A DNA stretch of 64,000 bases, taken from assembly GCA_031554185.1 (NCBI GenBank), contig JAVBKE010000023.1, forward strand, positions 15,597-79,596. The letters are read 5' to 3'. The position numbers and the translations under genes were made by a program. Shown here in pieces: positions 9,666 through 63,800 of the stretch. The DNA is from Bacillales bacterium (GTDB lineage: Bacteria > Bacillota > Bacilli > JARBTR01). How positions within the stretch are numbered: position 1 is the stretch's first letter; each line of letters begins with the position of its first letter. The notes beneath the pieces were generated by a model. That model saw nothing but the letters and a program-made list of their open reading frames with translations. It had not been told where the DNA came from and made no database searches.

Positions 9666-9718
9666 AATTACCCAGACCATTAATTGTATAATTAATATAT
9701 TAAAGATCGAGGGATAAA

Positions 9719-11617
9719 ATGACATTACAAGAATTTAAAAACTGGGGACTTTCACAAGGTGGAAACATCGGAAAATACAATGATGGTGGTTTTCCTGGTG
9801 AATGTGTAAGTTTTGTAAACCAATATTGTTACCGAGTGTTAAATGTTCCAGCTGGAGCATGGGGTCATGCTAAATCATGGGGAGACAATCAAGCCTCTCT
9901 TGCATATTTTGATATTGTTGGTGACATTCGTCCAGGAGACATCATTGTTTACCCAGATATGGGTGGTGGAGTTTATGGACACATCGAAGTCGCTCTTGAT
10001 GCTTCTACCGGAATCGATCAAAACGGACGAGCTGGTGCAGGACGAGTTGGAGTAGGTGGTTGGTTCGCAGGAAGAAAAAGAATTCTTCGTAAAAAAGGTG
10101 GACAAACTCTTGAGTCTAATCAGCGTCAAACAATTAATTCAACTATTAATCAAAGGTCTCAACCCACTACTAAGTCAGAAGTTAAGGGGACACTTGATCC
10201 AAATGTAGTTGGAACATTTAAAGGTTTCGTTCACGGAGAGGCAGTCGAAGGAAGCGACATTTGGTTTGTTGGAAACTTCTCTGGTTTATATTCTCACTCA
10301 AGTGGATTCACCAACTCAGGAACATCAGGGCTTCAAGACTTAACAGTATATGAAACTATTAAGCCTACTGAAAGAAAAGTTGCATTCGATGGAGTAACAT
10401 TCAGATCAGGGGCAAGTCGAGGATCTAGCGCGATTGCTTCTTATAACACCGGAGATGTCATCGACATGAAAGGCTGGGTTTACGGAGAAGAAGTTACAAC
10501 TGATGGAGGAAAATCAAATATCTGGTTTGTTTCATCTCTTCGAGGACTATATGCGCACTCAACACTATTTACAGATAAAAATGCTCATGATCTCTCTGAC
10601 TTGAATCCAAAAGATCCAGGTCCATCGGCTCCAGAAGAAGAGTTAAAATATCCTGAATATACGACTGATAAAAAAGTCACTGAAGTCGTGAACAAAAAAC
10701 ACCCGAATAATCCAATCACTTATGGCCCATCTGACTTGTCAACTGTCAATGGTCAAAAGCTTCGAAAAGAAACTGCAGAAGCTCTAGCAATGATGAACGA
10801 GGCTATAAAAAAAGAAAACATGTCATTGATAGTTGTAAGTGGATTCAGAACATTTGACTACCAGCAACAGCTTTACACAAATTACGTAAAACAAGATGGA
10901 ATTGAAGCAGCTGACAGGTACTCAGCTAGAGCTGGATATTCAGAGCACCAAACTGGTTTGACAGCTGATTTAAATGATATTGATGACAAGTTCAAAAATA
11001 CAAAAGAATACTCATGGCTTGTAAAAAACGCATACAAGTATGGATTCATACTTAGATATCCTGACGGAGAAGAATCTGTTACAGGTTATATGTATGAACC
11101 TTGGCACTGGAGATATGCTGGTGTAGAAGTAGCCACTGATATGAAAAATAAGAATGTTTCTACACTTGAACGATATTACGACATCTCTGGTGGAGATTAT
11201 TACAAAGAGAATCCAACTCCAACACCAGACCCTGACCCAGAGCCAACTCCAGGTCCTGATCCGACTCCAGATCCTGACCCTACGCCTGATCCTAACCCTG
11301 AACCAACTCCAGACCCTGAGCCCGAGCCTGAAATACCTGGTACAATAGCTATTGAGGAAATGAAAAAATTGAAAGAAGATCTCGACAAAGCTATTAACCA
11401 GGTTGAAAACCAAGAAGATGTTCCATCTGTAAGTGACAACGTCAGACACATTGCATATTGGATATTTGATGGTTTATTGTTGATTGCTCCAATCATTGGT
11501 ATGTTGATGATTTATCCTCAACTTCCTCCAGCAGCTATGCCAATCGCAGTAGCGACAATTCTTACAGCTTTTGCAAATGCAGGATTAACGCTTTTCCAAC
11601 TCAATAAGAAAAAGTAG
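9719..11617 (+). CDS. multidomain peptidoglycan hydrolase (lysin): CHAP + 2 SH3-like repeats + M15/VanY D-Ala-D-Ala carboxypeptidase + PT-rich linker + C-terminal 2-TM tail
   Basis: N-term FPGECVSFVNQYCY..GHIEVAL (CHAP Cys/His); two ~45-aa repeats GxxxGEAVEGSDIWFVxxxxGLYxHS; SGFRTFDYQQQLY..YSEHQTGLTADL..EPWHWRY (VanY/M15); PTPDPDPEPTP linker; hydrophobic C-terminus ending KKK. Confidence 0.8.
   Translation: MTLQEFKNWGLSQGGNIGKYNDGGFPGECVSFVNQYCYRVLNVPAGAWGHAKSWGDNQASLAYFDIVGDIRPGDIIVYPDMGGGVYGHIEVALDASTGIDQNGRAGAGRVGVGGWFAGRKRILRKKGGQTLESNQRQTINSTINQRSQPTTKSEVKGTLDPNVVGTFKGFVHGEAVEGSDIWFVGNFSGLYSHSSGFTNSGTSGLQDLTVYETIKPTERKVAFDGVTFRSGASRGSSAIASYNTGDVIDMKGWVYGEEVTTDGGKSNIWFVSSLRGLYAHSTLFTDKNAHDLSDLNPKDPGPSAPEEELKYPEYTTDKKVTEVVNKKHPNNPITYGPSDLSTVNGQKLRKETAEALAMMNEAIKKENMSLIVVSGFRTFDYQQQLYTNYVKQDGIEAADRYSARAGYSEHQTGLTADLNDIDDKFKNTKEYSWLVKNAYKYGFILRYPDGEESVTGYMYEPWHWRYAGVEVATDMKNKNVSTLERYYDISGGDYYKENPTPTPDPDPEPTPGPDPTPDPDPTPDPNPEPTPDPEPEPEIPGTIAIEEMKKLKEDLDKAINQVENQEDVPSVSDNVRHIAYWIFDGLLLIAPIIGMLMIYPQLPPAAMPIAVATILTAFANAGLTLFQLNKKK
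11222..11335 (+). repeat. imperfect 6-nt tandem repeats (cct gac cca gag ...) encoding the PT/PD/PE linker
   Basis: low-complexity DNA visible in sequence; coding. Confidence 0.7.
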
Positions 11618-11644: not shown

Positions 11645-11668
11645 AGGAGCTCTGCAGGGCTCCTTTTT
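11645..11668. terminator. rho-independent terminator between convergent lysin and terminase genes
   Basis: aggagc-tctgcagg-gctcct hairpin followed by TTTTT. Confidence 0.55.
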
Positions 11669-11733: not shown

Positions 11734-13125
11734 TTAAAGAATTGTGATCCTGGATCGTCTCTTGAACATCATCTCTCTACGACAAAAACTAGCAATCATC
11801 AAACTATCAGCGAAGTCAGGACTTCTTCCGATCTTCAGTTTAAGTTTATCTTTTGGAACGACTTTCGGATCTTGATTGTCCATGTCATATGTGTGAGCAG
11901 AAAGTTCTCTTCGAAGCTCATCTAAAGAACTTAATGATTTAAGAATTCTGACTGAACAAGAGTCAAAGTCAAGATACAAGTTGTAGTAGTTTTCGCTCCT
12001 ACTTTTTCCTGTTGCTTTGTAGTCAGTAATCTGCCATCCTTTAGCTCTCATCATGTCTCTCATTCCAACTCCGACACCGTTAGATTCAATTGCGATATTT
12101 CGAGATTCTCTTCGAGTGAATCCGTGGTTTTCGGCAAATCGACTTAATTCATCTGCATATAATCTAGAAAGTGGAGCGTCTGGGTTTGATTTATCGATTT
12201 TTAGTGATCTTTGATCAGTGACAACTCCGTTTTCGATTAAAGTAACTACTGTTTCATCTTTTCCACCGTCTGCGACGTCAACGCCTATGAACTTATTGAA
12301 TTTTTCTTCTGATTCAGGAATGTCGTATGTCATTGCTTTCATTAAAATGTCAGGTGGGAATAAAGAGTCGTCCTCAGAGTAATAGTCCCAGTTTCCATCA
12401 AGCAATCGTTTTCTTTCTCGATCAGGAAGAGTCTTCAGAGTTTCAATGTAGTTTTTGCTGATGAATGGGTTATCAAAAACACTCATTCTTAGGAATGCCC
12501 TGTATGACGGAAGTTTTTCTCCTGTTTGGCTAATGTAGTCTCCGATTTGCCATTTTTGAAACTCTCCAGCTCCAGCTTGTTCATATGGATCATAATACTC
12601 TTGTCTCAAAAAGTTTTGAGATGGGTTGCACGAAAGAATCAACTTTCCGGGAATTTTTAATTTTTGACAAATAGGTCCACGACCAACCCTAGATTTTACA
12701 GCATTTTTCGCAGAAACAACAATCTCACCAGCTTCATCGATAAATGCGAAATCGATCCCTAAAGATCCGAGTTTCGAATAATCAGGATCTGATGGTGAAT
12801 AATCAAGATCCATCAAAATAATTTTTGACCCATTTTTGTACCAAATTTCACCAAGCTGTCCCTTAAACTCAAAATCTGAATCTGTAATTCCTAGTGCTGG
12901 GTGAACTTCAGATAAAAGTGTCGACAAGGTCGTTCGTCTAAGGGAAACTCCTGTTTTTCTGAAAATAAAGTTTTTCATTCCAGCGTACTCTTTGCAAAGT
13001 AAAGCAGCGATCATTCCCATAGTGAATGTTTTCGACCCACCACCCGATCCTCCAACTAGAAGTTCTATAATCGATGGATCATGAGCAATTTCAATTGCAT
13101 ATTTTTGTTTTTCTGATACAATCAC
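11734..13125 (-). CDS. terL: terminase large subunit
   Basis: Walker A VGGSGGGSKT, Walker B IDFAFIDEAGE, C-terminal RNaseH-like nuclease acidic residues; GTG start 3 nt after upstream stop. Confidence 0.8.
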   Translation of the reverse strand: MIVSEKQKYAIEIAHDPSIIELLVGGSGGGSKTFTMGMIAALLCKEYAGMKNFIFRKTGVSLRRTTLSTLLSEVHPALGITDSDFEFKGQLGEIWYKNGSKIILMDLDYSPSDPDYSKLGSLGIDFAFIDEAGEIVVSAKNAVKSRVGRGPICQKLKIPGKLILSCNPSQNFLRQEYYDPYEQAGAGEFQKWQIGDYISQTGEKLPSYRAFLRMSVFDNPFISKNYIETLKTLPDRERKRLLDGNWDYYSEDDSLFPPDILMKAMTYDIPESEEKFNKFIGVDVADGGKDETVVTLIENGVVTDQRSLKIDKSNPDAPLSRLYADELSRFAENHGFTRRESRNIAIESNGVGVGMRDMMRAKGWQITDYKATGKSRSENYYNLYLDFDSCSVRILKSLSSLDELRRELSAHTYDMDNQDPKVVPKDKLKLKIGRSPDFADSLMIASFCRREMMFKRRSRITIL

Positions 13126-39090: not shown

Positions 39091-39184
39091 TTAACAATCA
39101 AAATACAGGGAATTAGGCTAATGGTAAACCTTTGGATTCCAAACCCAACATTTACAGTTCAAATCTGTAATTCCCTGCCAATAT

Positions 39185-39261
39185 GCCACTTTAGCTCAGC
39201 TGGTTAGAGCAACTGCTTTGTAAGCAGTAGGTCCTCGGTTCGAATCCGAGAAGTGGCTCCA
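39185..39261 (+). tRNA. tRNA-Thr: tRNA-Thr (anticodon TGT)
   Basis: acceptor gccactt/aagtggc, anticodon stem actgc/gcagt loop tttgtaa, T arm ctcgg-ttcgaat-ccgag, CCA encoded. Confidence 0.75.
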
Positions 39262-39264
39262 AAT

Positions 39265-39278
39265 AAAGTATTTACTTT
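39265..39278. promoter_or_regulatory. operator-like palindrome AAAGTATTTACTTT
   Basis: inverted-repeat motif between first tRNA and rest of array. Confidence 0.4.
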
Positions 39279-39439
39279 TTAATATAAGTGAATTATAATA
39301 ATTAAGAACTTTAAAAATTAACAACTGGCGGACAAGGCTTTGGCGCAAGTATAAGAGATTGAAAAATTGAGTCTCAGTTTTCACACTGGAAAATTATACG
39401 TTAAATAGCGATGGGTAGCGAGTGGCCAGTTTCAAGCAT

Positions 39440-39513
39440 AGCAGGGAAAGATTTGGTAATCTATCTTGTCTCATAAGCAAGAGGTGAAGGTTCGATTCCT
39501 TCCCTTGCATCCA
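39440..39513 (+). tRNA. tRNA-like, CAT anticodon (Met/Ile2), non-canonical
   Basis: anticodon stem cttgt/gcaag loop ctcataa, T arm gaagg-ttcgatt-ccttc, CCA; A1.A72 mismatch, short D loop, extra nt at position 26. Confidence 0.3.
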
Positions 39514-39519
39514 ATTTGA

Positions 39520-39594
39520 TGGGCGATGGTGTAATGGTTAGCACAGAACTTTCATACGGTTCAAGTCAAAGTTCAACTCTTTGTTGCCCAACCA
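39520..39594 (+). tRNA. tRNA-Met: tRNA-Met/Ile2 (anticodon CAT)
   Basis: acceptor tgggcga/ttgccca, D loop aatggtta, anticodon stem gaact/ggttc loop ttcatac, T arm caaag-ttcaact-ctttg, CCA. Confidence 0.7.
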
Positions 39595-39601
39595 AAAACA
39601 T

Positions 39602-39677
39602 CAGGGTAAAGTGTTGATGGTAACACACTCGGCCTGGAACCGAGAGATTGTGAGTTCGACCCTCGCAACCCTGACCA
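39602..39677 (+). tRNA. tRNA-Pro: tRNA-Pro (anticodon TGG)
   Basis: acceptor cagggta/aaccctg, anticodon stem ctcgg/ccgag loop cctggaa, T arm gtgag-ttcgacc-ctcgc, CCA. Confidence 0.75.
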
Positions 39678-39749
39678 CGAGAGTTAGTGTAAATGCTAAC
39701 ACGCTTTCCATAGGGGAAAGAAAAGGTGGTTCAACTCCATCACTCTCGA
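39678..39749 (+). tRNA. tRNA-like, undetermined isotype (anticodon loop cATAGGg; TAG if canonical)
   Basis: perfect acceptor cgagagt/actctcg, D stem gtgt/acac with D loop aaatgcta (no GG), anticodon stem ctttc/gaaag, T arm ggtgg-ttcaact-ccatc, A73, no CCA; position 33 is A. Confidence 0.4.
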
Positions 39750-39755
39750 ACATGA

Positions 39756-39841
39756 GCTAGAGCGACGAAGTGGGAGAGTCGTGGCAGACTGTAAATCTGT
39801 TCCCGTTGGGTGAGTAGGTTCGAATCCTACCTCTGGCACCA
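39756..39841 (+). tRNA. tRNA-Tyr: tRNA-Tyr (anticodon GTA), long variable arm
   Basis: acceptor gctagag/ctctggc, anticodon stem gcaga/tctgt loop ctgtaaa, long variable arm, T arm gtagg-ttcgaat-cctac, CCA. Confidence 0.75.
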
Positions 39842-39847
39842 AATTAT

Positions 39848-39921
39848 AGGGGATTAGTATAATGGTAGAACGTTGCTCTGATGTGGCGAAGGTATAGGTT
39901 CAATTCCTTTATCCCCTACCA
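39848..39921 (+). tRNA. tRNA-Ile: tRNA-Ile (anticodon GAT)
   Basis: perfect acceptor aggggat/atcccct, anticodon stem ttgct/ggcga loop ctgatgt, T loop ttcaatt, CCA. Confidence 0.7.
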
Positions 39922-40316
39922 AAAAAGCACATTAACAAGTGATTATATAGTTTTATGAGCAAATGAGTCGAACGAAAGTTTAACGCTCTGTTTTCAAACA
40001 GGAACCTCATTTGTTCAGGTAAATTACACGTGGTGGAAAATTAGGTAGACACTATAGGACGCAATAAGTATCGGGAAAAGATGGTAGCGTTGTGGAATGT
40101 AACACCCAGATTTTCTTCTAAGTACACGAAGAAAGATTACGTTGGCGGTAACTGGCAACAGATTGCGTCAAGGGAGCATCCGCGCCGGTGACTCGATATA
40201 TGCAAGGTTAACTATTCTAGTTGCAATGTAAGCTAGAATATTCTCTATGAGATATTTGAATAAAGCTATTGCCTAGACAAACCCTTGCCGTGTTATTTCA
40301 TAGAACTATATAATTA

Positions 40317-40391
40317 GCCCACATAGTGAAACGGATATAATATTAGTCTTCGAAACTAAAGTTTCAGGTTCGAATCCTGATGAGGGCACCA
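40317..40391 (+). tRNA. tRNA-Arg: tRNA-Arg (anticodon TCG)
   Basis: acceptor gcccaca/tgagggc (one mismatch), anticodon stem ttagt/actaa loop cttcgaa, T arm tcagg-ttcgaat-cctga, CCA. Confidence 0.65.
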
Positions 40392-40396
40392 AATTT

Positions 40397-40471
40397 GCAA
40401 GTGAAGTGTTTATGGTTGCACTTCTGCCTTCCAAGCAGAGAGACAGAGTTCGAATCTCTGCACTTGCACCA
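40397..40471 (+). tRNA. tRNA-Gly: tRNA-Gly (anticodon TCC)
   Basis: perfect acceptor gcaagtg/cacttgc, D gtgt..gcac, anticodon stem tctgc/gcaga loop cttccaa, T arm cagag-ttcgaat-ctctg, CCA. Confidence 0.8.
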
Positions 40472-40475
40472 ATAA

Positions 40476-40552
40476 GCTCCGGTAGCTCAAATGGATAGAG
40501 TAATAGGTTTCTACCCTACAGGTTGGGGGTTCGAATCCCTCTCGGAGTACCA
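40476..40552 (+). tRNA. tRNA-Arg: tRNA-Arg (anticodon TCT)
   Basis: acceptor gctccgg/tcggagt, anticodon loop tttctac, T arm ggggg-ttcgaat-ccctc, CCA. Confidence 0.65.
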
Positions 40553-40563
40553 TTAACAATTTA

Positions 40564-40638
40564 GGGGTGTTCGTATAACGGTTATTACTGTTGCTTTGCA
40601 AGCAACGAACCAGAGTTCGACTCTCTGACACTCCACCA
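40564..40638 (+). tRNA. tRNA-Ala: tRNA-Ala (anticodon TGC)
   Basis: acceptor ggggtgt/acactcc with G3.U70, anticodon stem gttgc/gcaac loop tttgcaa, T arm cagag-ttcgact-ctctg, CCA. Confidence 0.75.
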
Positions 40639-40644
40639 AAACGA

Positions 40645-40720
40645 GCGGGTATAGCCAAGTGGTTAAGGCGCTGGATTTTCATTCCAGTATTCGTCGGTTC
40701 GAATCCGTCTACCCGTACCA
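40645..40720 (+). tRNA. tRNA-Glu: tRNA-Glu (anticodon TTC)
   Basis: acceptor gcgggta/tacccgt, anticodon stem ctgga/tccag loop ttttcat, T loop ttcgaat, CCA. Confidence 0.75.
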
Positions 40721-40723
40721 AAT

Positions 40724-40801
40724 GCTTCTCTATCCCAACTGGCAGAGGAGAACGGCTCAAACCCGTTTAATGTCTCAGTTCGAATCTGAGGAGAAGCACC
40801 A
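40724..40801 (+). tRNA. tRNA with Leu anticodon CAA but short (6-nt) variable arm
   Basis: perfect acceptor gcttctc/gagaagc, anticodon stem aacgg/ccgtt loop ctcaaac, T arm ctcag-ttcgaat-ctgag, A73, CCA. Confidence 0.55.
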
Positions 40802-40804
40802 TAC

Positions 40805-40889
40805 GCATAAGTGGTGGAACTGGTATACACGCGTGTCTTAGAAGCACGTGCCGAAAGGATTGAGAGTTCAAGTCTCTCCTTATGCACCA
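40805..40889 (+). tRNA. tRNA-Leu: tRNA-Leu (anticodon TAG), canonical long variable arm
   Basis: perfect acceptor gcataag/cttatgc, anticodon stem cgtgt/gcacg loop cttagaa, 13-nt variable arm, T arm gagag-ttcaagt-ctctc, CCA. Confidence 0.8.
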
Positions 40890-40893
40890 ACAA

Positions 40894-40969
40894 GCTTCTG
40901 TAGCCCAAAGGCAGAGGCAAACGACTTAAGATCGTTAAAGTGTTGGTTCGACTCCAACCAGAAGCACCA
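40894..40969 (+). tRNA. tRNA with Leu anticodon TAA but short (5-nt) variable arm
   Basis: perfect acceptor gcttctg/cagaagc, anticodon stem aacga/tcgtt loop cttaaga, T arm gttgg-ttcgact-ccaac, A73, CCA; canonical 76-nt class I cloverleaf. Confidence 0.6.
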
Positions 40970-41024
40970 GCGCATGTACTGGTAAGATGATATAATAAGT
41001 GTATTATCTAAAAGGAATAAATAT

Positions 41025-41210
41025 ATGCTCTTAACAGTTTTCGCAGCAGTAATCGTAATACTATTGTTTGTATTATTCATAAGGCTGATAGCCTCGTTGT
41101 TTTCTACAGCGATTCGACCATTATCAGAAAAGAATAATTCAGTTTACACAATTGTTACAGCGATTTTAGCTGCATTAGCACTATGGTGGCTATTGTCACT
41201 AGTGCTGTAG
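41025..41210 (+). CDS. small hydrophobic membrane protein (61 aa, 2 predicted TM) embedded in tRNA array
   Basis: ORF MLLTVFAAVIVILLFVLF... between tRNA blocks; weak RBS. Confidence 0.4.
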   Translation: MLLTVFAAVIVILLFVLFIRLIASLFSTAIRPLSEKNNSVYTIVTAILAALALWWLLSLVL

Positions 41211-41212
41211 AT

Positions 41213-41298
41213 GGAAGATATCCGGCCGGATGAGGACACCGCTTTGAAAGCGGCTGGGTGTTAAAGCCTTCAGGGTTCGAGTCCCTGGTCTTCCGCCA
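41213..41298 (+). tRNA. tRNA-Ser: tRNA-Ser (anticodon TGA), long variable arm
   Basis: acceptor ggaagat/gtcttcc, anticodon stem ccgc/gcgg loop tttgaaa, long variable arm, T arm caggg-ttcgagt-ccctg, G73, CCA. Confidence 0.75.
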
Positions 41299-41301
41299 AA
41301 T

Positions 41302-41377
41302 GCCCATATAGTGTAGCGGTTTGCATACTTCCCTGTCACGGAAGAGGCCACGGGTTCAAATCCCGTTGTGGGCGCCA
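41302..41377 (+). tRNA. tRNA-Asp: tRNA-Asp (anticodon GTC)
   Basis: acceptor gcccata/tgtgggc, anticodon stem cttcc/ggaag loop ctgtcac, T arm acggg-ttcaaat-cccgt, G73, CCA. Confidence 0.8.
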
Positions 41378-41382
41378 GATAA

Positions 41383-41457
41383 TGCGTATTCGTCCAACGG
41401 TTAGGACATCGGACTTATATTCCGACAACATCAGTTCAACTCTGATATACGCTACCA
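41383..41457 (+). tRNA. tRNA-Ile: tRNA-Ile (anticodon TAT)
   Basis: acceptor tgcgtat/atacgct (U1.U72 mismatch), D gtcc..ggac, anticodon stem tcgga/tccga loop cttatat, T arm atcag-ttcaact-ctgat, CCA. Confidence 0.6.
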
Positions 41458-41462
41458 AGTAA

Positions 41463-41538
41463 GCTCCCTTAGCTCAATGGCTAGAGCGCCCTCCTTACAA
41501 GTGGGAGGTTCCTGGTTCGAATCCAGGAGGGAGTACCA
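41463..41538 (+). tRNA. tRNA-Val: tRNA-Val (anticodon TAC)
   Basis: acceptor gctccct/agggagt, D gctc..gagc, anticodon loop cttacaa, T arm cctgg-ttcgaat-ccagg, CCA. Confidence 0.75.
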
Positions 41539-41543
41539 AGTAA

Positions 41544-41617
41544 TCCCTTGTGGTGAAATGGTATCACAATTGGCTGTTAACCAATCATTTCAGGTTCAAG
41601 TCCTGGCGAGGGAGCCA
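41544..41617 (+). tRNA. tRNA-Asn: tRNA-Asn (anticodon GTT)
   Basis: acceptor tcccttg/cgaggga, D gtga..tcac, anticodon stem attgg/ccaat loop ctgttaa, T loop ttcaagt, G73, CCA. Confidence 0.8.
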
Positions 41618-41623
41618 AAATAT

Positions 41624-41699
41624 GGTGAGCATAGTGTAATAGTTCGCACGTCACCCTGTGAAGGTGAAGGAACTGGTGCAAATCCAGTTGTTTACCCCA
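41624..41699 (+). tRNA. tRNA-His: tRNA-His (anticodon GTG) with G-1
   Basis: extra 5' G pairing with C73 (His identity), acceptor gtgagca/tgtttac, anticodon stem tcacc/ggtga loop ctgtgaa, T arm actgg-tgcaaat-ccagt, CCA. Confidence 0.8.
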
Positions 41700-41704
41700 A
41701 ATAG

Positions 41705-41780
41705 TAGGAAGTAGCTTAATCGGTAGAGCATCGAGCTTTGAACTCGAAGGTTGCAGGTTCGACCCCTGCCTTCCTAGCCA
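41705..41780 (+). tRNA. tRNA-Gln: tRNA-Gln (anticodon TTG)
   Basis: perfect acceptor taggaag/cttccta, anticodon stem tcgag/ctcga loop ctttgaa, T arm gcagg-ttcgacc-cctgc, G73, CCA. Confidence 0.8.
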
Positions 41781-41784
41781 AATT

Positions 41785-41877
41785 GGAAGATTGGCGGAGC
41801 TTGGTTTATCGCACTTCATTGCTAATGAAGCGTGTGGAGAGATCCCACCGTAGGTTCGAATCCTGCATCTTCCGCCA
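41785..41877 (+). tRNA. tRNA-Ser: tRNA-Ser (anticodon GCT), long variable arm
   Basis: acceptor ggaagat/atcttcc (identical to the other Ser tRNA), anticodon stem cttca/tgaag loop ttgctaa, long variable arm, T loop ttcgaat, G73, CCA. Confidence 0.8.
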
Positions 41878-42015
41878 AATTGTTTACTTTAAATCTTTCG
41901 TGTGATATAATTCTTAATATGATTAACTTAACCTGTAAAACAACCAAAAAGTTTACGATCTCCAGTCGGAGAAACGATTATTTGGTTTAATATCTAGTTA
42001 AAAAATCATAAATCG

Positions 42016-42041
42016 AACTCCGGCTGATAGCGGAGTTTTTT
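42016..42041 (+). terminator. rho-independent terminator inside tRNA array
   Basis: aactccg-gctgatag-cggagtt hairpin plus TTTTTT. Confidence 0.5.
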
Positions 42042-42045
42042 ATTT

Positions 42046-42120
42046 GCCCCCATAGCTCAATGGTAGAGCACCATCCTTGTAAGATGGCGACGAAAGTTCG
42101 ATTCTGTTCTGGGGGAGCCA
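42046..42120 (+). tRNA. tRNA-Thr-like (anticodon TGT), irregular T-arm/acceptor (possible pseudo-tRNA)
   Basis: acceptor gccccca/tggggga with G1.A72 mismatch, perfect D stem gctc/gagc, anticodon stem ccatc/gatgg loop cttgtaa, T loop ttcgatt with weak stem and an extra c, CCA. Confidence 0.45.
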
Positions 42121-42123
42121 AAC

Positions 42124-42197
42124 GGGTTGATAGTTCAACGGTAGAATAACTGGCTCTTAACCAGTCCACGAAGGTTCGACACCTTCTCAGCCCACCA
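42124..42197 (+). tRNA. tRNA-Lys: tRNA-Lys (anticodon CTT)
   Basis: acceptor gggttga/tcagccc, anticodon stem actgg/ccagt loop ctcttaa, T arm gaagg-ttcgaca-ccttc, CCA. Confidence 0.75.
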
Positions 42198-42205
42198 AAA
42201 TATAT

Positions 42206-42280
42206 GCCTTCGTAGCATAGAAGTAAATGCACCTGCCTGAAGAGCAGGGGAATACAGTGCGATTCTGTACGTTGGCACCA
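42206..42280 (+). tRNA. tRNA-Phe: tRNA-Phe (anticodon GAA)
   Basis: acceptor gccttcg/cgttggc (two U.U mismatches at 4:69 and 5:68), perfect D stem gcat/atgc but D loop lacks GG, anticodon stem cctgc/gcagg loop ctgaaga, T arm tacag-tgcgatt-ctgta, CCA. Confidence 0.65.
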
Positions 42281-42284
42281 GTTT

Positions 42285-42358
42285 GGATCCTTGGCTTATC
42301 GGCTGAGCACTTGGCTTTTAACCAAGCGAGAGAGGTTCGACTCCTCTAGGATCCACCA
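42285..42358 (+). tRNA. tRNA-Lys: tRNA-Lys (anticodon TTT)
   Basis: perfect acceptor ggatcct/aggatcc, anticodon stem cttgg/ccaag loop cttttaa, T arm agagg-ttcgact-cctct, CCA. Confidence 0.8.
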
Positions 42359-42362
42359 TTAT

Positions 42363-42438
42363 GGCGTTGTGGGGGAGTGGTTTCACCCGTGTGCCTGCAA
42401 AGCACAAGACGTTGGTTCAAATCCAACCTGCGCTTCCA
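42363..42438 (+). tRNA. tRNA-Cys: tRNA-Cys (anticodon GCA)
   Basis: anticodon stem tgtgc/gcaca loop ctgcaaa, T arm gttgg-ttcaaat-ccaac, U73 discriminator (Cys identity), CCA. Confidence 0.75.
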
Positions 42439-42475
42439 TATTCACATTAAAGATTATTTGTTGTAGAATATTTCT

Positions 42476-42790
42476 ATGGAGAAAATTAGAGATTCTACCG
42501 GATGTCCTCCGGATATTTGCGGGACAGATGAATGTTTTGTTTTTAGAACAACTGGTGAATGCTTTGAAGATATTCATCATGAATTTCACCCTAGGAGAGA
42601 ATACAAAACAGGACTCGAAAGAAAGTTTCGAGAAATACCAGAGTTTAAAACTATTTTGTGCAGAGCTTCACATCAATTGATTCATGCAATGATCGATAAA
42701 AGAATTGAACCTTTGCCAGAAAAACCAGATCGCGTATTCATGTTAAACGCACTGCAAGAAGCACGACGATCAACAATGGTCAATAATTAA
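42476..42790 (+). CDS. HNH endonuclease
   Basis: CPPDICGTDEC...HHEFHPRREY...LCRASHQLIH HNH/Zn motifs; flanks tRNA array. Confidence 0.55.
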   Translation: MEKIRDSTGCPPDICGTDECFVFRTTGECFEDIHHEFHPRREYKTGLERKFREIPEFKTILCRASHQLIHAMIDKRIEPLPEKPDRVFMLNALQEARRSTMVNN

Positions 42791-42810
42791 TATACTTTCA
42801 CTAGACACTA

Positions 42811-42819
42811 TGGTATAAT
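42811..42819 (+). promoter_or_regulatory. extended -10 promoter TGGTATAAT
   Basis: TGnTATAAT upstream of SLT gene. Confidence 0.35.
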
Positions 42820-42985
42820 TGATCAGTCCAATTTTGAAAAGATAGTTTCTAATATTAGATAAATTATCCTATTATTCTGAGGACAAATATGAGTAGAAAT
42901 AAACGAACAATACAAGTTCCGCAAACGAAATTCATCACGACTAATTTTAGTCGTGTTTTTATTTGTGAACAAAAAAGGAGCGAAA

Positions 42986-43717
42986 ATGCTTAAATTAAAA
43001 CAATCTTTAAAAGGCTTTAAACAAAAGCTCAGACGTAAACACACACCAATGACGAAAGAAAAATTATCAAAACGTCTTAAAGTTTTGAAATGGATAATTT
43101 TGTTTTTGGTTCTTTCTGTTTTAGTGGCAATTGTATTTAACATAATACAAAGTGGAGAAATCAATAAGAGACAAAGAGAGATTGAAAATCGACAAATCCA
43201 AATTGAGCAAATCGACACAAAGTTAAATGACTCCAGGAAAAAACTTGACGATCAAGAAATCACTGTTCAAGAATATCAAAAAGAAGTCGATAAGTTAAAC
43301 AAAGAAAAAGAAGACCTGAATTCACAACTACAAGCAAAAGTTGAACGGCAGAAGCAAGAACAAATTGCATACGCCGAATCACAAAAGAAAGTTTCAGTTC
43401 AACAAACAGTCTCTCAACCAGTTCAATCTTCACCTCAAGTTTCAGGATCAAAAGCGGATTGGTTAGCTGCTTCAGGAATTCCTCAAAGTGAATGGGGGTA
43501 TGTTGATAGCATTGTTACAAAAGAAAGTGGATGGAATCCAAATGCAGTTAATTCTAGTTCTGGGGCATGTGGTCTAGGTCAACAACTTCCATGCGGAAAG
43601 TGGGCAGGAGCTTGGAATGATCCAGTCGCTGCTTTAGTTGCGATGAATGGATATGTTCAAAAATATGGTGGTTGGGCAGGAGCTGTGTCATTCTGGCAAA
43701 CTAATAGGTGGTATTAA
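42986..43717 (+). CDS. membrane-anchored lytic transglycosylase (SLT domain) with coiled-coil
   Basis: N-terminal TM helix, coiled coil, C-terminal ESGWNPNAVNSSSGACGLGQ (SLT ES...GLxQ motif); ATG 42986 after AAGGAG (track start 42953). Confidence 0.6.
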   Translation: MLKLKQSLKGFKQKLRRKHTPMTKEKLSKRLKVLKWIILFLVLSVLVAIVFNIIQSGEINKRQREIENRQIQIEQIDTKLNDSRKKLDDQEITVQEYQKEVDKLNKEKEDLNSQLQAKVERQKQEQIAYAESQKKVSVQQTVSQPVQSSPQVSGSKADWLAASGIPQSEWGYVDSIVTKESGWNPNAVNSSSGACGLGQQLPCGKWAGAWNDPVAALVAMNGYVQKYGGWAGAVSFWQTNRWY

Positions 43718-43725
43718 GGAGTCAT

Positions 43726-43821
43726 ATGAAAATTTCTAAAACAATGTTTCCAAAAAGATTTAAAAAAGCAGAACTTCCAAAAGAAGGCATTAAAGTTAGT
43801 ATGTACTTCGAAGAATCATAA
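43726..43821 (+). CDS. small basic peptide (31 aa)
   Basis: AAGGAG RBS 5 nt upstream of ATG, terminator hairpin immediately downstream. Confidence 0.35.
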   Translation: MKISKTMFPKRFKKAELPKEGIKVSMYFEES

Positions 43822-43840
43822 TTAACTACAAACAAATTTG

Positions 43841-43866
43841 AGCATCGAAAGGTGCTCTTTTTAATT
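43841..43866 (+). terminator. rho-independent terminator
   Basis: gagca-tcgaaagg-tgctc hairpin plus TTTTT. Confidence 0.45.
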
Positions 43867-43868
43867 AA

Positions 43869-43882
43869 AAAGTATTTACTTA
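43869..43882. promoter_or_regulatory. operator-like palindrome AAAGTATTTACTTA followed by ttagcatagataatatataat promoter
   Basis: inverted-repeat motif; same architecture as the site at 48823. Confidence 0.4.
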
Positions 43883-44025
43883 TTAGCATAGATAATATAT
43901 AATGCTTATATCAATCTAATATAGGATTGAAGAACATTTACCACTACTTAGATAGATTAAGGCGAAACAAATTTCAATTCGTGAGAGAAATTGAAGTGTG
44001 AGGGTAGGTCTTAATCTATCATCTT

Positions 44026-44100
44026 GCTTGCGTAGCTCAGAGGCAGAGCGCTTCCCTGTCACGGAAGAGGTCGAGATTTCAAAATTCTTCGTAGGCGCCA
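44026..44100 (+). tRNA. tRNA-Asp-like (anticodon GTC), diverged second copy outside main array
   Basis: acceptor gcttgcg/cgtaggc, perfect D stem gctc/gagc, anticodon arm identical to the array tRNA-Asp (cttcc-ctgtcac-ggaag), weak T arm gaga-ttcaaaa-tctt, G73, CCA. Confidence 0.45.
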
Positions 44101-44184: not shown

Positions 44185-44370
44185 ATGAATACATTTGTAC
44201 AAATAGTTCTATGCATCTTAATAGTTTTTCAATTCTTATCAATAATTCTTTCTCCATTTAAGGTTCGAAAAGAAAACGAAACTGGAGGAACAATTGCATT
44301 AGGAATACTGCTAAACATTTGTTTCATAGCTTTGTACATTTATTTGTTTAATGTTCTAAGGAATCTATAG
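44185..44370 (+). CDS. small membrane protein (2 TM)
   Basis: 61-aa hydrophobic ORF. Confidence 0.4.
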   Translation: MNTFVQIVLCILIVFQFLSIILSPFKVRKENETGGTIALGILLNICFIALYIYLFNVLRNL

Positions 44371-59367: not shown

Positions 59368-60018
59368 GTGAAAATAAAAAAAGCAAGCAACTGGAAATGG
59401 TTATATCTAATTCCAGTGATTTTAACGTTATTAGGTGCCGTTTATCTTTATATGCTTGCTTTGGACTTTCGAAAAGCAGAATCAAATATAATTTATGAAT
59501 ACAACAAAACCTCAGCTCAAATTGTAGAAGAATCAATCAACGATTTTGTTTTAAGGGATGGAGATTGGAATGTATACAGGGAATCATATGTTGCATCAAT
59601 GGCTCACTCAGCTGAATTATTAGATTGCAAGCCAGAAATTGTTGCAGTTTTAGGTGATAAAGATTTAAACGTAATAAATGATCGAAATGAAAATAAACCT
59701 AATCCGTTTGATGATCCAGCTATTAGAGAGCAAGTGTTAAATTCTAAGAGTGGAGAGATCTATTCAAATTATGGTAAAGGATCTGAACTAAAGTTTTCAA
59801 GTTCACCAATTAGATATTATTTCACATGGATTCCTGCAGGACAAGAAGATCAATTCTTATTATTAGTAGGATCAACTGAAGATGCAGCTAATCAAAGCTT
59901 TAACAGGATCTTAGTGATTTTAAGTCAAACTATGGTGGGAGTTTTTATCATTGAGTTCGTAATGGTGGACCAAATCAAAAGAGCTAAAAAAACGAGACAG
60001 GGTAATGGGAAAAGATAG
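59368..60018 (+). CDS. hypothetical membrane-anchored protein
   Basis: GTG start; N-terminal TM helix; 216 aa. Confidence 0.4.
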   Translation: MKIKKASNWKWLYLIPVILTLLGAVYLYMLALDFRKAESNIIYEYNKTSAQIVEESINDFVLRDGDWNVYRESYVASMAHSAELLDCKPEIVAVLGDKDLNVINDRNENKPNPFDDPAIREQVLNSKSGEIYSNYGKGSELKFSSSPIRYYFTWIPAGQEDQFLLLVGSTEDAANQSFNRILVILSQTMVGVFIIEFVMVDQIKRAKKTRQGNGKR

Positions 60019-60023
60019 AGATA

Positions 60024-60329
60024 ATGCATCAACCAATAGACTTATTCACAATCATCTTGCACGCTTGTTTAGCTTTAATGGGTGCTTTAGTGAGGGAAAT
60101 TAGAGACTGGGAAAAGGATCGATCGATTCCTGGTTTTATTGGAGGAGCACTATGTGGGGCATTTCTCGGAGTTTTGGCTTATTTGATCTGCAATTCAATC
60201 GGAATGGACGGGTCAATGACAGCTGCTATTGCTGGAATTTTTGGTTATGGTTCGTATCCGATGTTGGATGCATTAGAAAAAAGAGTTCGTCACGCAGTCA
60301 AAAACAAAGACATTTCAAAAAAGAAATAG
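60024..60329 (+). CDS. holin-like small membrane protein
   Basis: 101 aa, 2-3 predicted TM helices, charged C-terminus ending KDISKKK. Confidence 0.4.
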   Translation: MHQPIDLFTIILHACLALMGALVREIRDWEKDRSIPGFIGGALCGAFLGVLAYLICNSIGMDGSMTAAIAGIFGYGSYPMLDALEKRVRHAVKNKDISKKK

Positions 60330-60884: not shown

Positions 60885-63800
60885 ATGAATCCTTTTGCAA
60901 AAATCTTCAACATAAACAGAAACAAAGAAAAAACAATAGAAAACGATCGAAGGTTGTCAAACGATTACTTGCGAAATGGAAATGCGAAAGCCAAGAGAAC
61001 GATAATCATCGATGAAGAAGACAACAAGGAAACTTCATACTCTGGTTGGTTATACGCAGCGCTGAATGTTCGAGCAGATAACTTTGCTTCTTTTTGTGAA
61101 GAATCTGTCATGCCAGCATTTGACGTAGAAGATGAGAATGTTACAGTAAATCACCCTTATATCAAAATGATCGAGAATTCTCAACGATATGAAGAATACG
61201 ATTTTTGGCACGACATCTTAGCCGATTACGATATTTTTGGTGAATACTTTATTTTCATTTTGCGAAGAGTTGTGTATGAAAAAGATCCAAAAACTGGCAA
61301 ACAAGTATTGACTTATTGCGGGGAGCCTCAATCAATCGAAGTTTTAGATGCTGGAAACATGACTGTTTTGAAGAATGGTTATGGAGAAGTTGTTGGCTAC
61401 AAAGAGCAAGTAGATAGCACTCATTACAGGGAATTCTCAGTAGACCAAATTATTCACAGGATAAATAAGAATCCGATGAACAAGGAATTACCTTATTCTA
61501 TTTTTGATGCTGCTAGAGATTATCAATATACGATTAACAAAGGCAGCGACTATGCAAAAGCTGCTTTAATCAATAACATCAATACCCCTGCAATTATTAG
61601 TTCCCAGCAAGAACTTTCTCCAGATGAATACGATAACTTGGTTGCAAGAATTTCTCAACATGAAGCTGGAAAACCTATTGTTGCTAATGGTGCTGGTGCG
61701 ATTGATTACAAAGAAACAAATCAAAGTTTAGACAAAGCTTCTCTTCCTTCTTTAAATGAAATTAATCGACAAACAATTTATGCCATTACAGGAACTTCAA
61801 AAACTATTCTTGGTATCGAAGAATCAGGAACGACAAGAGAGACAGCTCGAGTCCAAGACAAGAAGTTTACACAAAAAACTATTCTTCCATTGGCAAAACG
61901 AGTTGTTGGCTCACTAAACCTTGATTTTAGAATTCACTATCCTGAAGCTGTAAAAAAATATAATTTAAAACTTGACATTAAAGATCTCACAGATCCTGAA
62001 GATGTTCAAGAAAAACTTACTACTCAAAAACTTTTATTCGACGATATTACAGAAATCGTTTATTCAGGTTACACAGCTCAATCAGCTGAAGATTTCATGT
62101 ATGGTGATATTTCATATACAGCTCTGGTACCTGATGAAGACTCTTCTCAAGATGAAACAGAAGAAGATGTTCCTGGAGGAATTAATTCACCTGAAGAAGA
62201 AGAAGAAGAAGAACCAGTTGACGAAACTCCAAAGGAAACAATGGATGGCGCAGTCGACTTAAAAGAGTCTGATAAACTATTAGTTCCAGAGAACTTTGTT
62301 CGGAATTATGTTCATGACAAAAATTACGTAAGCGACCTTATCATAGAAGAAAACGCAACCCCAAAAGGAAACCCTCACCATGATAAAGTTGGAAAGTTTA
62401 CTTATGGTCCTTATGGAGAATACACAGGTTTGGAAAAAACGACAAAGCTTTGCCAAACAATGAACAAACTTCTTGAGAAACAATATAAGAAGAGAGAAAA
62501 GATGGCGTCGATGGCGTCTGATGAGGAATTTTATAATCAATGGCAAGATCTTAAAGAGAAGTCAGGAGAAGTAATCAAGAATTACATCGAAGCAAATGGT
62601 GGTGATTACAACAAGTTGATGACGATGGAAAGTGATTGGGTAGGAAATGACTACAAGACAATTGAAGATCACATTAAAAACAAAGACTCAAAAGAATTAG
62701 AGTTGATGAATGCTCTTCAGCAAGCATATTTTCACGAAGCAGGAATTAAGGAGATTACCCTTGAAAGAGGTGTCTATGGGGATCAAGCAAAAAAACTAAA
62801 AGAAGCACAAAAAAGCGGGAAATCGATAGATCTTGGACCTGACTACGCAACTTCATTTACAGGAGATCATTATGCTGCAGTTGATTACGCTGATGGTGCT
62901 TCATTTACTGCTCCAGATGACATATCAGACTCTGTAGTTATTAAGAAAACAATTCCAGTAGATCAAATAGTCTATTCTACAGAGGTCCTTAGAGGAAAAG
63001 CTGGATCGTTAAAAGATGAATTTATCGTGACTATGCCAAAGGGAATGAAGATCGATCCAAGTGATATCGAAGTGATTAATTCGCTGGAAGATGTTGTCAC
63101 AAATAATATTGAAGATGAACACGATTTTAGCCCAAAGATCACCGAAGAGCATCAAGGTTGGGTAGGAGCTAAGGTAACGCCTATTGAGGTTTCTGACAGG
63201 CTAAGTGATGAATTGAAAATTCAGCTTGCAGATGAAAGTTTAATGGATGCCGAACAAGAGGCAACGAACAGTCCAGGACAAGAAAATCCTCACTTCACTG
63301 TTGTTTATGGTTTGAAAGAGGAAGCTTATAAAAATGATATTAAAAAACTTTTTAAAGATTTAGTTCCAAAAGAAGTAGAGATCGAATCAATTGAAAAATT
63401 CGACCTAGACAATGACGACTCTGATGTAATCGTCGCTAAGGTAAAAAAGACCCCAGAGCTAGAAGCTATGAATAAAGCTTTCTTGGAGCTACCTCATTAC
63501 GACCAGAAATTTCCAGATTACACTCCGCATGTTTCTTTGGTTTATGTCAAAAAAGATGCAGACGACAAAGAAATCATTGACTCATTTCAAGATTTAGTTG
63601 GTAAGAAACTTAAAGTTGCTGGAGCTGACTATGGTAAGAATTCTCCAATGACAACAAATCAAAAAGAAATCGATTTTGAGAATCATACTCACGATGGTGG
63701 TGAATTTACAATAGATGATCATATTAACTCTGTGTTTTCTAAGCGGCTTAATGATCTTGGTGAATTAGATGACTATTCTAAGACACAACAAGCTCAACTT

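What the first reader, a model, noticed from the sequence alone, without database searches (positions are those of the whole stretch)
9719..11617. Lysin with four catalytic/binding modules and a C-terminal two-helix membrane tail (possible lysin-holin fusion)
The domain order is CHAP, two SH3-like repeats, M15/VanY peptidase, a 38-aa PT/PD/PE linker, a coiled segment, then about 45 hydrophobic residues (two predicted TM helices) ending in KKK. Established knowledge: canonical endolysins are soluble and rely on a separate holin. A membrane-embedded C-terminal module is unusual and suggests a holin-like or signal-anchor function fused to the lysin. The gene is the last of the rightward unit and is followed only by a terminator. 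A separate holin-like ORF lies far away at 60024-60329.
Basis: partly seen in the sequence, partly recalled or inferred. Interest (0 to 1): 0.55.

Follow-up and report, generated by a model that had tools for sequence, protein, structure and literature searches.

The report
Phage lysin with membrane-hairpin tail
This phage gene encodes a cell-wall-cutting enzyme that ends in a two-helix membrane hairpin; in related phages that hairpin takes the place of the separate 'holin' gene that normally lets such enzymes out of the cell.

Summary
ORF 9719-11617 encodes 632 aa: CHAP, two SH3b-like repeats, an LdcB/VanY-type zinc peptidase, a disordered Pro/Thr/Asp/Glu linker, one amphipathic helix, two hydrophobic helices, then NKKK. 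A hairpin terminator follows.

About 84 metagenomic homologs share this build. All end in either a roughly 75-aa two-helix hydrophobic tail (55) or a short amphipathic helix (29).

The main comparative result:
- In 6 of 6 loci with a short-tailed lysin, a stand-alone 2-TM holin gene lies directly downstream (phrog_443, Phage_r1t_holin or phrog_1299).
- In 0 of 11 loci with a long-tailed lysin is there such a gene.
- One stand-alone downstream ORF is homologous to one tail type (BLASTP 5e-10; HMM 7e-19).

So the family shows endolysin-holin gene fusion or fission.

The window's own tail is an orphan with no holin homology. Its helices are only marginally hydrophobic. A separate LydA-type holin sits at 60024-60329. 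Whether this tail forms holes or only tethers the enzyme is therefore open.

The closest precedents are Enc34/M4Lys endolysins (C-terminal two-helix TMD, Gram-negative phages) and a Clostridium sporogenes holin-endolysin fusion. I rate it a new variant of a known kind, of moderate interest.

The parts
9709..9713 (+). Shine-Dalgarno-like GAGGG, 5 nt upstream of the ATG
   Evidence: Read directly from the sequence.
9719..11617 (+). Lysin gene, 632 aa plus stop codon
   Evidence: About 84 homologs share the architecture.
9782..9991 (+). CHAP cysteine peptidase/amidase domain (Pfam envelope, residues 22-91; the fold spans about 1-125)
   Evidence: Pfam PF05257 1.6e-8. PDB profile hits to LysK, LysGH15 and PlyPy CHAP domains at about 1e-8. 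C29 and H88 invariant.
10109..10351 (+). SH3b-like repeat 1 (residues about 131-211)
   Evidence: Matches repeat 2 at BLASTP 8e-12. Beta-rich in the AF2 model, pLDDT 82-91.
10358..10612 (+). SH3b-like repeat 2 (residues about 214-298)
   Evidence: PDB profile hit 8b2f SH3-like cell-wall-binding domain 2.8e-4. Foldseek 8b2f TMt 0.80 and 8b2g TMt 0.65.
10688..11188 (+). LAS-family zinc peptidase (VanY/LdcB-like; residues about 324-490)
   Evidence: Pfam VanY 1.2e-42. PDB LdcB 4mph/4ox3/4ox5 at 1e-60 to 1e-50. Foldseek TMt 0.82. H410, D417, E460 and H463 invariant.
11204..11332 (+). Pro/Thr/Asp/Glu-rich linker (residues about 496-538)
   Evidence: Read from the sequence. AF2 pLDDT below 50 over 496-542. 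A Pro-rich linker occupies this position in all homologs.
11342..11407 (+). Charged amphipathic helix before the hydrophobic tail (residues 542-563)
   Evidence: AF2 helix H542-563.
11450..11518 (+). Hydrophobic helix 1 (core residues 578-600; AF2 helix 573-601)
   Evidence: Kyte-Doolittle 19-mer maximum 2.0. AF2 helix. Marginal on the Hessa-type scale at +2.6.
11531..11602 (+). Hydrophobic helix 2 (core residues 605-628; AF2 helix 604-631), followed by NKKK and the stop codon
   Evidence: Kyte-Doolittle 1.66. AF2 helix. Hessa-type scale +3.3.
11645..11664 (.). Terminator-like hairpin, readable on both strands, between the convergent lysin and large terminase genes
   Evidence: Terminase assignment.
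60024..60329 (+). Separate holin gene (LydA type, holin superfamily III), 101 aa. Probable functional partner of the lysin.
   Evidence: Pfam Phage_holin_3_3 3.5e-12, 46.7 bits against a cutoff of 28.4. phrog_785 3.2e-13.
59368..60018 (+). 216-aa protein with N- and C-terminal hydrophobic segments, immediately upstream of the holin. A possible lysis accessory; function not established.
   Evidence: Hydropathy. No Pfam or PHROG hit.

Best explanation
This is the phage's endolysin. It is a Gram-positive-type modular enzyme: CHAP peptidase/amidase, two SH3b wall-binding repeats and an LdcB/VanY-like zinc peptidase. Its C-terminus is a holin-type two-helix membrane hairpin, joined by a flexible linker of about 40 residues.

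Proposed mechanism:
1. The protein has no signal peptide, so it folds in the cytoplasm (inferred).
2. The hairpin inserts after translation with both ends inside (N-in/C-in) and the short PQLPP loop outside. NKKK stays on the cytoplasmic side, following the positive-inside rule. The enzyme is thus parked on the inner face of the membrane (inferred).
3. At lysis time the membrane is breached by the separate LydA-type holin (60024-60329), possibly with the hairpins co-assembling into the lesion (inferred).
4. The catalytic and binding domains pass through the lesion on their linker and cut the stem peptides while still tethered (inferred).

What is shown: the domain identities, intact catalytic residues, the helical hydrophobic tail, and the lysis-cassette context in relatives. 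In this protein family the tail is evolutionarily interchangeable with the holin gene that otherwise lies immediately downstream, so the tail is best read as a fused holin-class module. The topology, hole formation and tethered action are all inferred.
For: Endolysin identity:
- Domain hits and invariant catalytic residues.
- Cultured Arthrobacter phages Wyborn and BarretLemon carry a CHAP + 2 SH3-like protein annotated as endolysin, lying between a holin and a membrane protein.
- Relatives always sit at the end of the TMP-Dit-tail module, among small membrane proteins.
- No other endolysin-like gene was found among about 45 window ORFs scanned.

Tail as a holin-class module:
- Of 84 homologs, 55 have two-helix tails and 29 have a short amphipathic helix.
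- In 6 of 6 short-tailed loci a stand-alone 2-TM gene follows the lysin within 100 bp. These are phrog_443 holin 1.7e-21, Pfam Phage_r1t_holin, phrog_1299 holin 2e-4 to 7e-4, and the L137 66-aa ORF, which hits phrog_443 at 0.006.
- In 0 of 11 long-tailed loci is there such a gene. My arithmetic gives Fisher p of about 8e-5. The loci are not phylogenetically independent.
- The L137 66-aa ORF is homologous to type B tails: BLASTP 5e-10 with 46% identity over 52 aa, and HMM 6.7e-19.
- The P0070 tail hits phrog_443 holin at 2e-5.
- At least five mutually unrelated tail types occupy the same position. This mirrors the diversity of holins.

Helical hairpin in the window protein.
Against: - The window's own tail matches no holin family.
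- Exhaustive phmmer over 1.8 billion representatives gave only one hit, probably compositional. A profile of the tail plus the P0001 tail found nothing.
- Both helices are only marginally hydrophobic, and TM1 contains Asp and Pro. Stable insertion is therefore not assured.
- The charged C-terminus is only four residues long, shorter than in typical holins.
- The genome has its own holin about 48 kb away within the window, so a second one is not needed.
- No experiment has been done and no dedicated TM or topology predictor was run.
- A folded N-terminal cargo of about 55 kDa on every subunit could hinder holin oligomerisation.
Confidence: 0.5

Rival explanations
1. Passive membrane tether only. 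The hairpin does not form or join holes. It keeps the endolysin on the cytoplasmic membrane, concentrating it where the LydA-type holin will open. After lysis it keeps the enzyme on cell debris, so it does not diffuse and kill neighbouring potential hosts.
For: A separate, well-supported holin exists. The window tail has no holin homology. Short-tailed relatives carry only an amphipathic helix with a high hydrophobic moment of 0.5-0.76. This suggests that membrane association, rather than hole formation, is the trait shared by the whole family.
Against: In relatives the long tail replaces the downstream holin gene rather than being added to it. One tail type is homologous to a stand-alone holin-class ORF.
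Confidence: 0.28
2. Autonomous, holin-independent endolysin of the Enc34/M4Lys kind. The C-terminal helices themselves get the N-terminal enzyme across the membrane, and the protein lyses cells alone.
For: The layout matches: enzyme domains followed by a C-terminal two-helix TMD with a basic end. M4Lys lyses E. coli on its own and needs its TMD to do so (PMC7143992). Enc34 ORF39 behaves similarly (PMC8943055). Some long-tailed loci (L001) show no other membrane protein nearby.
Against: [quoted passage not shown] The Enc34 authors make the same point. There is no sequence relation to the Enc34 catalytic domain or TMD. This genome keeps a holin. Holin-independent lysis by M4Lys was seen only on overexpression.
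Confidence: 0.1
3. Virion-associated (tail-tip) peptidoglycan hydrolase used at infection. The hydrophobic helices insert into the host membrane to help DNA entry.
For: The gene directly follows the tape measure, Dit and minor tail genes. The holin lies elsewhere. Some related phages also encode a second LysM+CHAP protein.
Against: SH3b wall-binding repeats and two catalytic domains are typical of endolysins. Relatives are flanked by holin genes. No virion-attachment domain was recognised. The LysM+CHAP proteins of the relatives carry a signal peptide and lie on the opposite strand. No other endolysin candidate was found in the window.
Confidence: 0.08
4. Assembly or frameshift artefact that joins a lysin gene to a downstream holin gene.
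For: Relatives do have a separate holin gene exactly where the tail would be.
Against: The ORF is continuous through a 40-residue in-frame linker. There are 55 independent protein clusters from different samples and assemblers with the same fused layout.
Confidence: 0.02

Closest known systems
Enc34-type endolysins (Hafnia phage Enc34 ORF39, Salmonella phage BSPM4 M4Lys, phage Siskin; chi-like phages)
   Same: [quoted passage not shown] There is no signal peptide. A separate holin gene is still present in the genome (PMC8943055, PMC7143992).
   Different: These have a single PHA02564 lysozyme-like catalytic domain of about 200 aa and no wall-binding domain, and their hosts are Gram-negative. 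Here there are two peptidase domains plus two SH3b repeats and a long Pro-rich linker. There is no sequence similarity in either the enzyme or the tail. The published view was that the arrangement is limited to Chivirus-related phages.
Natural TpeE-family holin-endolysin fusion of Clostridium sporogenes (WP_163247266.1; PMC9527704)
   Same: A holin-class membrane module and an endolysin are translated as one polypeptide.
   Different: There the holin is N-terminal, with one TM helix plus an amphipathic helix, and the endolysin hangs from its C-terminus. Here the order is reversed and the module is a two-helix hairpin.
Class II (two-TMD, N-in/C-in) holins such as phage 21 S68, and r1t-type holins (Pfam PF16945, phrog_443)
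   Same: Two helices separated by a very short loop, with a basic C-terminus. Tails of relatives (P0070, type B) match phrog_443 or a stand-alone downstream ORF of that class.
   Different: The window's tail has no detectable homology to any holin family. It is fused behind 540 residues of enzyme. Its charged C-terminus is only NKKK.
Arthrobacter phage (Marthavirus and relatives) endolysins, e.g. Wyborn gp29 and BarretLemon gp28
   Same: CHAP plus two SH3-like repeats at 27-29% identity. They end in an amphipathic helix and are flanked by a holin and a 2-TM membrane protein. The terminase is also distantly related.
   Different: Their third domain is an amidase rather than VanY/LdcB. They have no two-helix tail. 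Their genomes are high in G+C.
SAR endolysins (P1 Lyz, phage 21 R)
   Same: The endolysin is held at the membrane by a weakly hydrophobic helix until the holin acts. The partner holin here is of the LydA (P1) type.
   Different: The SAR domain is N-terminal and exports the enzyme through Sec before release. Here the helices are C-terminal, so the enzyme should remain cytoplasmic.

Membership tests
Modular Gram-positive-type endolysin | One or more peptidoglycan-hydrolase domains with intact catalytic residues | tested here: met
   CHAP C29/H88 and LAS H410/D417/E460/H463 are invariant in 24 relatives. Domain hits.
Modular Gram-positive-type endolysin | Cell-wall-binding domain | tested here: met
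   Two SH3b-like repeats.
Modular Gram-positive-type endolysin | Encoded in a lysis cassette next to a holin | tested here: inconclusive
   In the window the holin is 48 kb away and there is no adjacent membrane-protein gene. In relatives, holin genes are adjacent.
Modular Gram-positive-type endolysin | Soluble cytoplasmic protein without membrane segments | tested here: not met
   Two C-terminal hydrophobic helices.
Enc34/M4Lys-type endolysin | [quoted passage not shown] | tested here: met
   Helices 573-601 and 604-631, from hydropathy and AF2. They are marginal on the insertion scale.
Enc34/M4Lys-type endolysin | PHA02564 lysozyme-like catalytic domain | tested here: not met
   The catalytic domains are CHAP and VanY/LdcB.
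Enc34/M4Lys-type endolysin | TMD-dependent lysis without a holin on expression | not testable with these tools
   Requires expression experiments.
Holin (as a fused module) | At least one TM helix and a charged C-terminus; two-TMD N-in/C-in layout for class II | tested here: inconclusive
   Two helices with an 8-9 residue loop and an NKKK end. The topology was not computed with a dedicated tool, and the charged end is very short.
Holin (as a fused module) | Sequence membership in a described holin family | tested here: not met
   The window tail gave no Pfam or PHROG holin hit and no relatives. Tails of relatives do hit: P0070 to phrog_443 at 2e-5, and type B to a stand-alone ORF.
Holin (as a fused module) | Membrane permeabilisation at a defined time | not testable with these tools
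   Requires experiment.
SAR endolysin | N-terminal signal-anchor-release helix | tested here: not met
   There is no hydrophobic segment before residue 575.
Virion-associated peptidoglycan hydrolase | Structural component of the tail (fused to tape measure/Tal, or present in virions) | not testable with these tools
   It is a separate gene after the tail genes. Virion content is unknown.
TpeE-type holin-endolysin fusion | Holin at the N-terminus with the endolysin attached to its C-terminal amphipathic helix | tested here: not met
   The membrane module is C-terminal.

The most novel reading that the evidence does not exclude
A widespread, so far undescribed class of single-polypeptide lysis devices. 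These are Gram-positive-type endolysins that have repeatedly captured the neighbouring holin gene as a C-terminal module, giving at least five unrelated tail types. The enzyme would leave the cytoplasm through a lesion made by its own tails and act while tethered. In phages such as L001, which have no other membrane protein nearby, this would be a one-gene holin-endolysin system. The window's orphan tail would be a new holin family.
Probability: 0.3. Interest if true: 0.75.

Novelty: new variant of a known kind. Interest (0 to 1): 0.58.

Why it matters
Holins and endolysins are textbook separate partners. How a folded endolysin physically gets through the holin lesion is still debated, especially for Gram-positive hosts and for non-lytic holin transport.

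A large natural family in which the two are covalently joined in some members and separate in close relatives offers matched fused and unfused pairs. These could be used to test:
- whether each holin subunit can carry its own cargo;
- whether tethering limits collateral killing;
- what sets lysis timing.

It also extends C-terminal TMD endolysins beyond the chi-like phages, where they were thought to be confined. The tails and short amphipathic helices are candidate membrane-active modules for engineered lysins.

Tried and rejected
- Window tail against Pfam and PHROGs at permissive thresholds: only noise.
- Exhaustive phmmer of the tail against 1.8 billion representatives: one 1240-aa repetitive hit, judged compositional.
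- Profile of the window tail plus the P0001 tail against 5.8 billion proteins: nothing.
- Profile of type A tails against the same database: nothing scored, not even known members, so this search is uninformative.
- Pairwise BLASTP of the r1t-type stand-alone holin against P0076 and P0070: not significant. The link rests only on both hitting phrog_443.
- An apparent resemblance of type C tails to the 2-TM protein downstream of the Arthrobacter phage endolysins got no HMM support, so I dropped it.
- The type C tail hits Pfam Phage_holin_10 only at 0.0047, below the cutoff.
- Internal translation start idea: GAGGAA directly before ATG at M548 (11354-11362) could give an 85-aa stand-alone 2-TM protein. 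The spacing is 2 nt against 5-8 nt for real starts in this genome, and P0001 has no good counterpart. Not supported.
- Host identification failed. There is no close phage in GenBank. No prophage with the full architecture occurs in 185,579 species genomes, only VanY-domain hits, many of them in Patescibacteria/Saccharibacteria MAGs. The exact protein is not in the contig index.
- The IMG/VR and metagenome scans yielded few full-architecture loci, so the downstream-gene comparison rests on 17 loci.
Full report
**1. What is in the sequence**

The ORF at 9719-11617 (+) is uninterrupted and encodes 632 residues. It has a GAGGG ribosome-binding site 5 nt upstream.

- Pfam finds CHAP (22-91, 1.6e-8) and VanY (346-468, 1.2e-42).
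- A profile of 24 family members hits solved LdcB LD-carboxypeptidases at 1e-60 to 1e-50, CHAP domains of phage lysins (LysK, LysGH15, PlyPy) at about 1e-8, and an SH3-like wall-binding domain (8b2f) at 2.8e-4.
- The two beta-rich repeats between CHAP and VanY match each other at 8e-12.
- The catalytic Cys/His of CHAP (C29, H88) and the zinc and catalytic residues of the LAS peptidase (H410, D417, E460, H463) are invariant.
- An AlphaFold2 model (mean pLDDT 78.8) gives confident SH3-like and VanY domains. It shows a disordered stretch at 496-542 (the Pro/Thr/Asp/Glu linker), a helix at 542-563, and two long helices at 573-601 and 604-631.
- Foldseek places the peptidase on B. anthracis LdcB (TMt 0.82, 45% identity) and the N-terminal half on CHAP-SH3 endolysins.

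The only hydrophobic stretches of the protein are 578-600 (Kyte-Doolittle 2.0) and 605-628 (1.66), and the protein ends in NKKK. A terminator-like hairpin at 11645-11664 separates the gene from the convergent large terminase gene.

One caveat applies. No dedicated TM predictor was available. On a Hessa-type insertion scale, with values recalled from memory, both helices are marginal at +2.6 and +3.3 kcal/mol. TM1 contains Asp584 and Pro590.

**2. Genomic setting**

The window is part of a phage genome longer than 64 kb, with 35.6% G+C. No close relative exists among 50,697 GenBank phages.

The gene order is as follows:
- Tape measure protein (N-terminus lies off the window), Dit, a minor tail protein and four ORFs without hits. 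None of the four has a hydrophobic segment.
- The lysin.
- Convergent terminase and DNA ligase genes.
- Replication genes.
- Thirty tRNA genes at 39.1-44.1 kb.
- DNA polymerase.
- Tail-fibre-like genes at 52.6-59.4 kb.
- A 216-aa two-TM protein, then a 101-aa holin at 60024-60329. The holin hits Pfam Phage_holin_3_3 (LydA type) at 3.5e-12, above the gathering score, and phrog_785 at 3e-13.
- A giant portal-region ORF that runs off the end of the window.

Among about 45 ORFs scanned, the only other wall-active protein is a membrane-anchored SLT-like protein at 42953-43717. The 632-aa protein is therefore the only endolysin candidate in the window.

**3. The family and its tails**

A search of 5.8 billion proteins returned about 84 proteins of 440-640 aa with the same build: CHAP or M23, then SH3-like repeats, then VanY. 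In every one, the VanY domain is followed by a Pro-rich linker and then a hydrophobic or amphipathic C-terminus.

- 55 have a roughly 75-residue tail with two hydrophobic helices.
- 29 have a single amphipathic helix of about 22 residues, with a hydrophobic moment of 0.5-0.76.
- None lacks such an end.

The long tails fall into at least five types that do not cross-match with HMMs, apart from A and A2, which do match each other. The window and its nearest relative P0001 (51% identity) share a sixth type.

**4. The key comparison**

I examined 17 independent loci. In all of them the gene sits at or near the end of the TMP-Dit-tail module, often among small membrane proteins.

In all six loci with a short-tailed lysin, a stand-alone two-TM gene begins within 100 bp downstream:
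- L041/L055 and L043/L044: an 82-aa ORF hitting phrog_443 holin at 1.7e-21.
- L138: a 79-aa Pfam Phage_r1t_holin.
- L035 and L136: ORFs of 92 and 94 aa hitting phrog_1299 holin at 7e-4 and 2e-4.
- L137: a 66-aa ORF hitting phrog_443 at 0.006.

In none of the eleven loci with a long-tailed lysin is there such a gene. These loci are the window, L001/2, L036-L040, L042, L054, L057 and L135.
- L036 and L135 have only a three-TM Transgly_assoc gene downstream. The short-tailed loci L035 and L136 carry that gene in addition to the holin.
- L037 has a one-TM 64-aa ORF downstream.

By my arithmetic, six of six against none of eleven gives a Fisher p of about 8e-5. The loci are related, so this overstates independence.

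The L137 66-aa ORF overlaps the stop codon of its lysin. It is homologous to the type B tails: BLASTP against P0007 gives 5e-10, with 46% identity over 52 residues, and an HMM of type B tails gives 6.7e-19 among 9,245 ORFs. The tail of P0070 hits the same holin PHROG as the stand-alone genes (phrog_443, 2e-5).

Together these results show that, in this family, the C-terminal hairpin and the downstream holin-class gene are the same element in fused and unfused states. Cultured Arthrobacter phages add an anchor. Their distantly related CHAP + SH3-like proteins are annotated as endolysins, end in an amphipathic helix, and lie between a holin and a two-TM membrane protein.

**5. What this means for the window's gene**

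That it is the endolysin is well supported. That it carries a membrane-type helical hairpin is supported by hydropathy, the structural model and conservation of the feature across the family.

That this particular hairpin is a holin is only an inference by analogy:
- It has no match in Pfam or PHROGs.
- An exhaustive search gave only a compositional hit, and a two-sequence profile search gave nothing.
- It is weakly hydrophobic.
- The genome has a separate LydA-type holin.

The most economical model runs as follows:
1. The enzyme folds in the cytoplasm.
2. The hairpin inserts N-in/C-in, with NKKK inside and the PQLPP loop outside.
3. The LydA-type holin triggers, with or without participation of the tails.
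4. The linker of about 40 residues lets the tethered enzyme reach the wall through the lesion.

Each step after 'helical hydrophobic tail' is inferred. The report lists four rivals: a pure tether, an M4Lys-like autonomous lysin, a virion-associated lysin, and an artefact. The first of these cannot be separated from the preferred model without experiments.

**6. Relation to what is known**

- Endolysins with a C-terminal two-helix TMD are described for Enc34, M4Lys and Siskin in chi-like phages of Gram-negative hosts. There the TMD is required for lysis on overexpression, and the arrangement was said to be limited to that clade (PMC8943055, PMC7143992).
- A natural holin-endolysin fusion with the opposite order is reported from C. 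sporogenes (PMC9527704).
- Five full-text literature searches found no description of a Gram-positive-type multi-domain lysin with a C-terminal holin-class hairpin, and none of fused and unfused pairs. The library is incomplete, so this is absence of evidence.

I therefore rate it a new variant of a known kind.

**7. Verdict**

Interest is moderate, at 0.58. The window gene by itself is an annotation curiosity. The family-wide fusion/fission pattern is a useful natural experiment for how endolysins leave the cell.

Noticed in passing
window 39107-44100: A cluster of 30 tRNA genes covering nearly all amino acids, all on the + strand, interspersed with small 2-TM ORFs at 41025-41210 and 44185-44370. 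This is a large tRNA set for a phage of this size.
   Followed up: no
window 42953-43717: A 254-aa protein with an N-terminal TM helix, a coiled coil and a C-terminal SLT-like transglycosylase domain (phrog_3310 1e-11; Pfam SLT 1.4e-4). It also gives weak hits to Rz-like spanins, probably through the coiled coil. It lies among early genes and tRNAs, and its role is unknown.
   Followed up: partly
window 59368-60018: A 216-aa ORF with hydrophobic segments at both ends and no family hit, ending 5 nt before the LydA-type holin gene. It could be an antiholin or a lysis accessory.
   Followed up: no
window 60885-64000 (runs off the end): A very long ORF of more than 1038 aa at the start of the head module. 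It contains a 2H-phosphoesterase/RNA-ligase-like segment (phrog_755 1e-13, residues 779-896). It may be a portal fused to accessory domains, as reported for the portal-MuF fusions of Arthrobacter cluster AK phages (PMC5513430).
   Followed up: partly
window 11354-11362: An in-frame GAGGAA followed directly by ATG (M548), just before the tail. An internal start here would give an 85-aa stand-alone 2-TM protein. The spacing is only 2 nt and the feature is not conserved in P0001.
   Followed up: yes
L003-L034 (genome-contig hits): The closest cellular relatives of the VanY/LdcB domain in 185,579 species genomes are mostly in Patescibacteria/Saccharibacteria MAGs. No genome carries the full lysin architecture, so no prophage copies were found. 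The phage's host remains unknown.
   Followed up: partly
L036 11846-12130 (+): The stored gene call here is a 79-aa ORF on the minus strand. A 94-aa + strand ORF with three hydrophobic segments looks like the Transgly_assoc genes downstream of the lysin in L035, L135 and L136. That resemblance was judged by eye and was not tested by alignment or a family search. If it holds, the + strand ORF is the better gene call.
   Followed up: partly
L035 8996-9217; L036 9244-9474; L041 8711-9088: Upstream of many family lysins lies a small protein with an N-terminal coiled coil and a single C-terminal TM helix. By eye the layout resembles XhlA, but it has no Pfam or PHROG hit. It is followed by one or two N-terminally anchored proteins. 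Together these look like a conserved, uncharacterised lysis-cassette module that is absent from the window.
   Followed up: partly
window 11734-13125 (-): The large terminase gene is convergent with the late tail-lysin unit. Its nearest relatives are terminases of Bacteroides, Flavobacteriia and Arthrobacter phages, at 23-32% identity.
   Followed up: no
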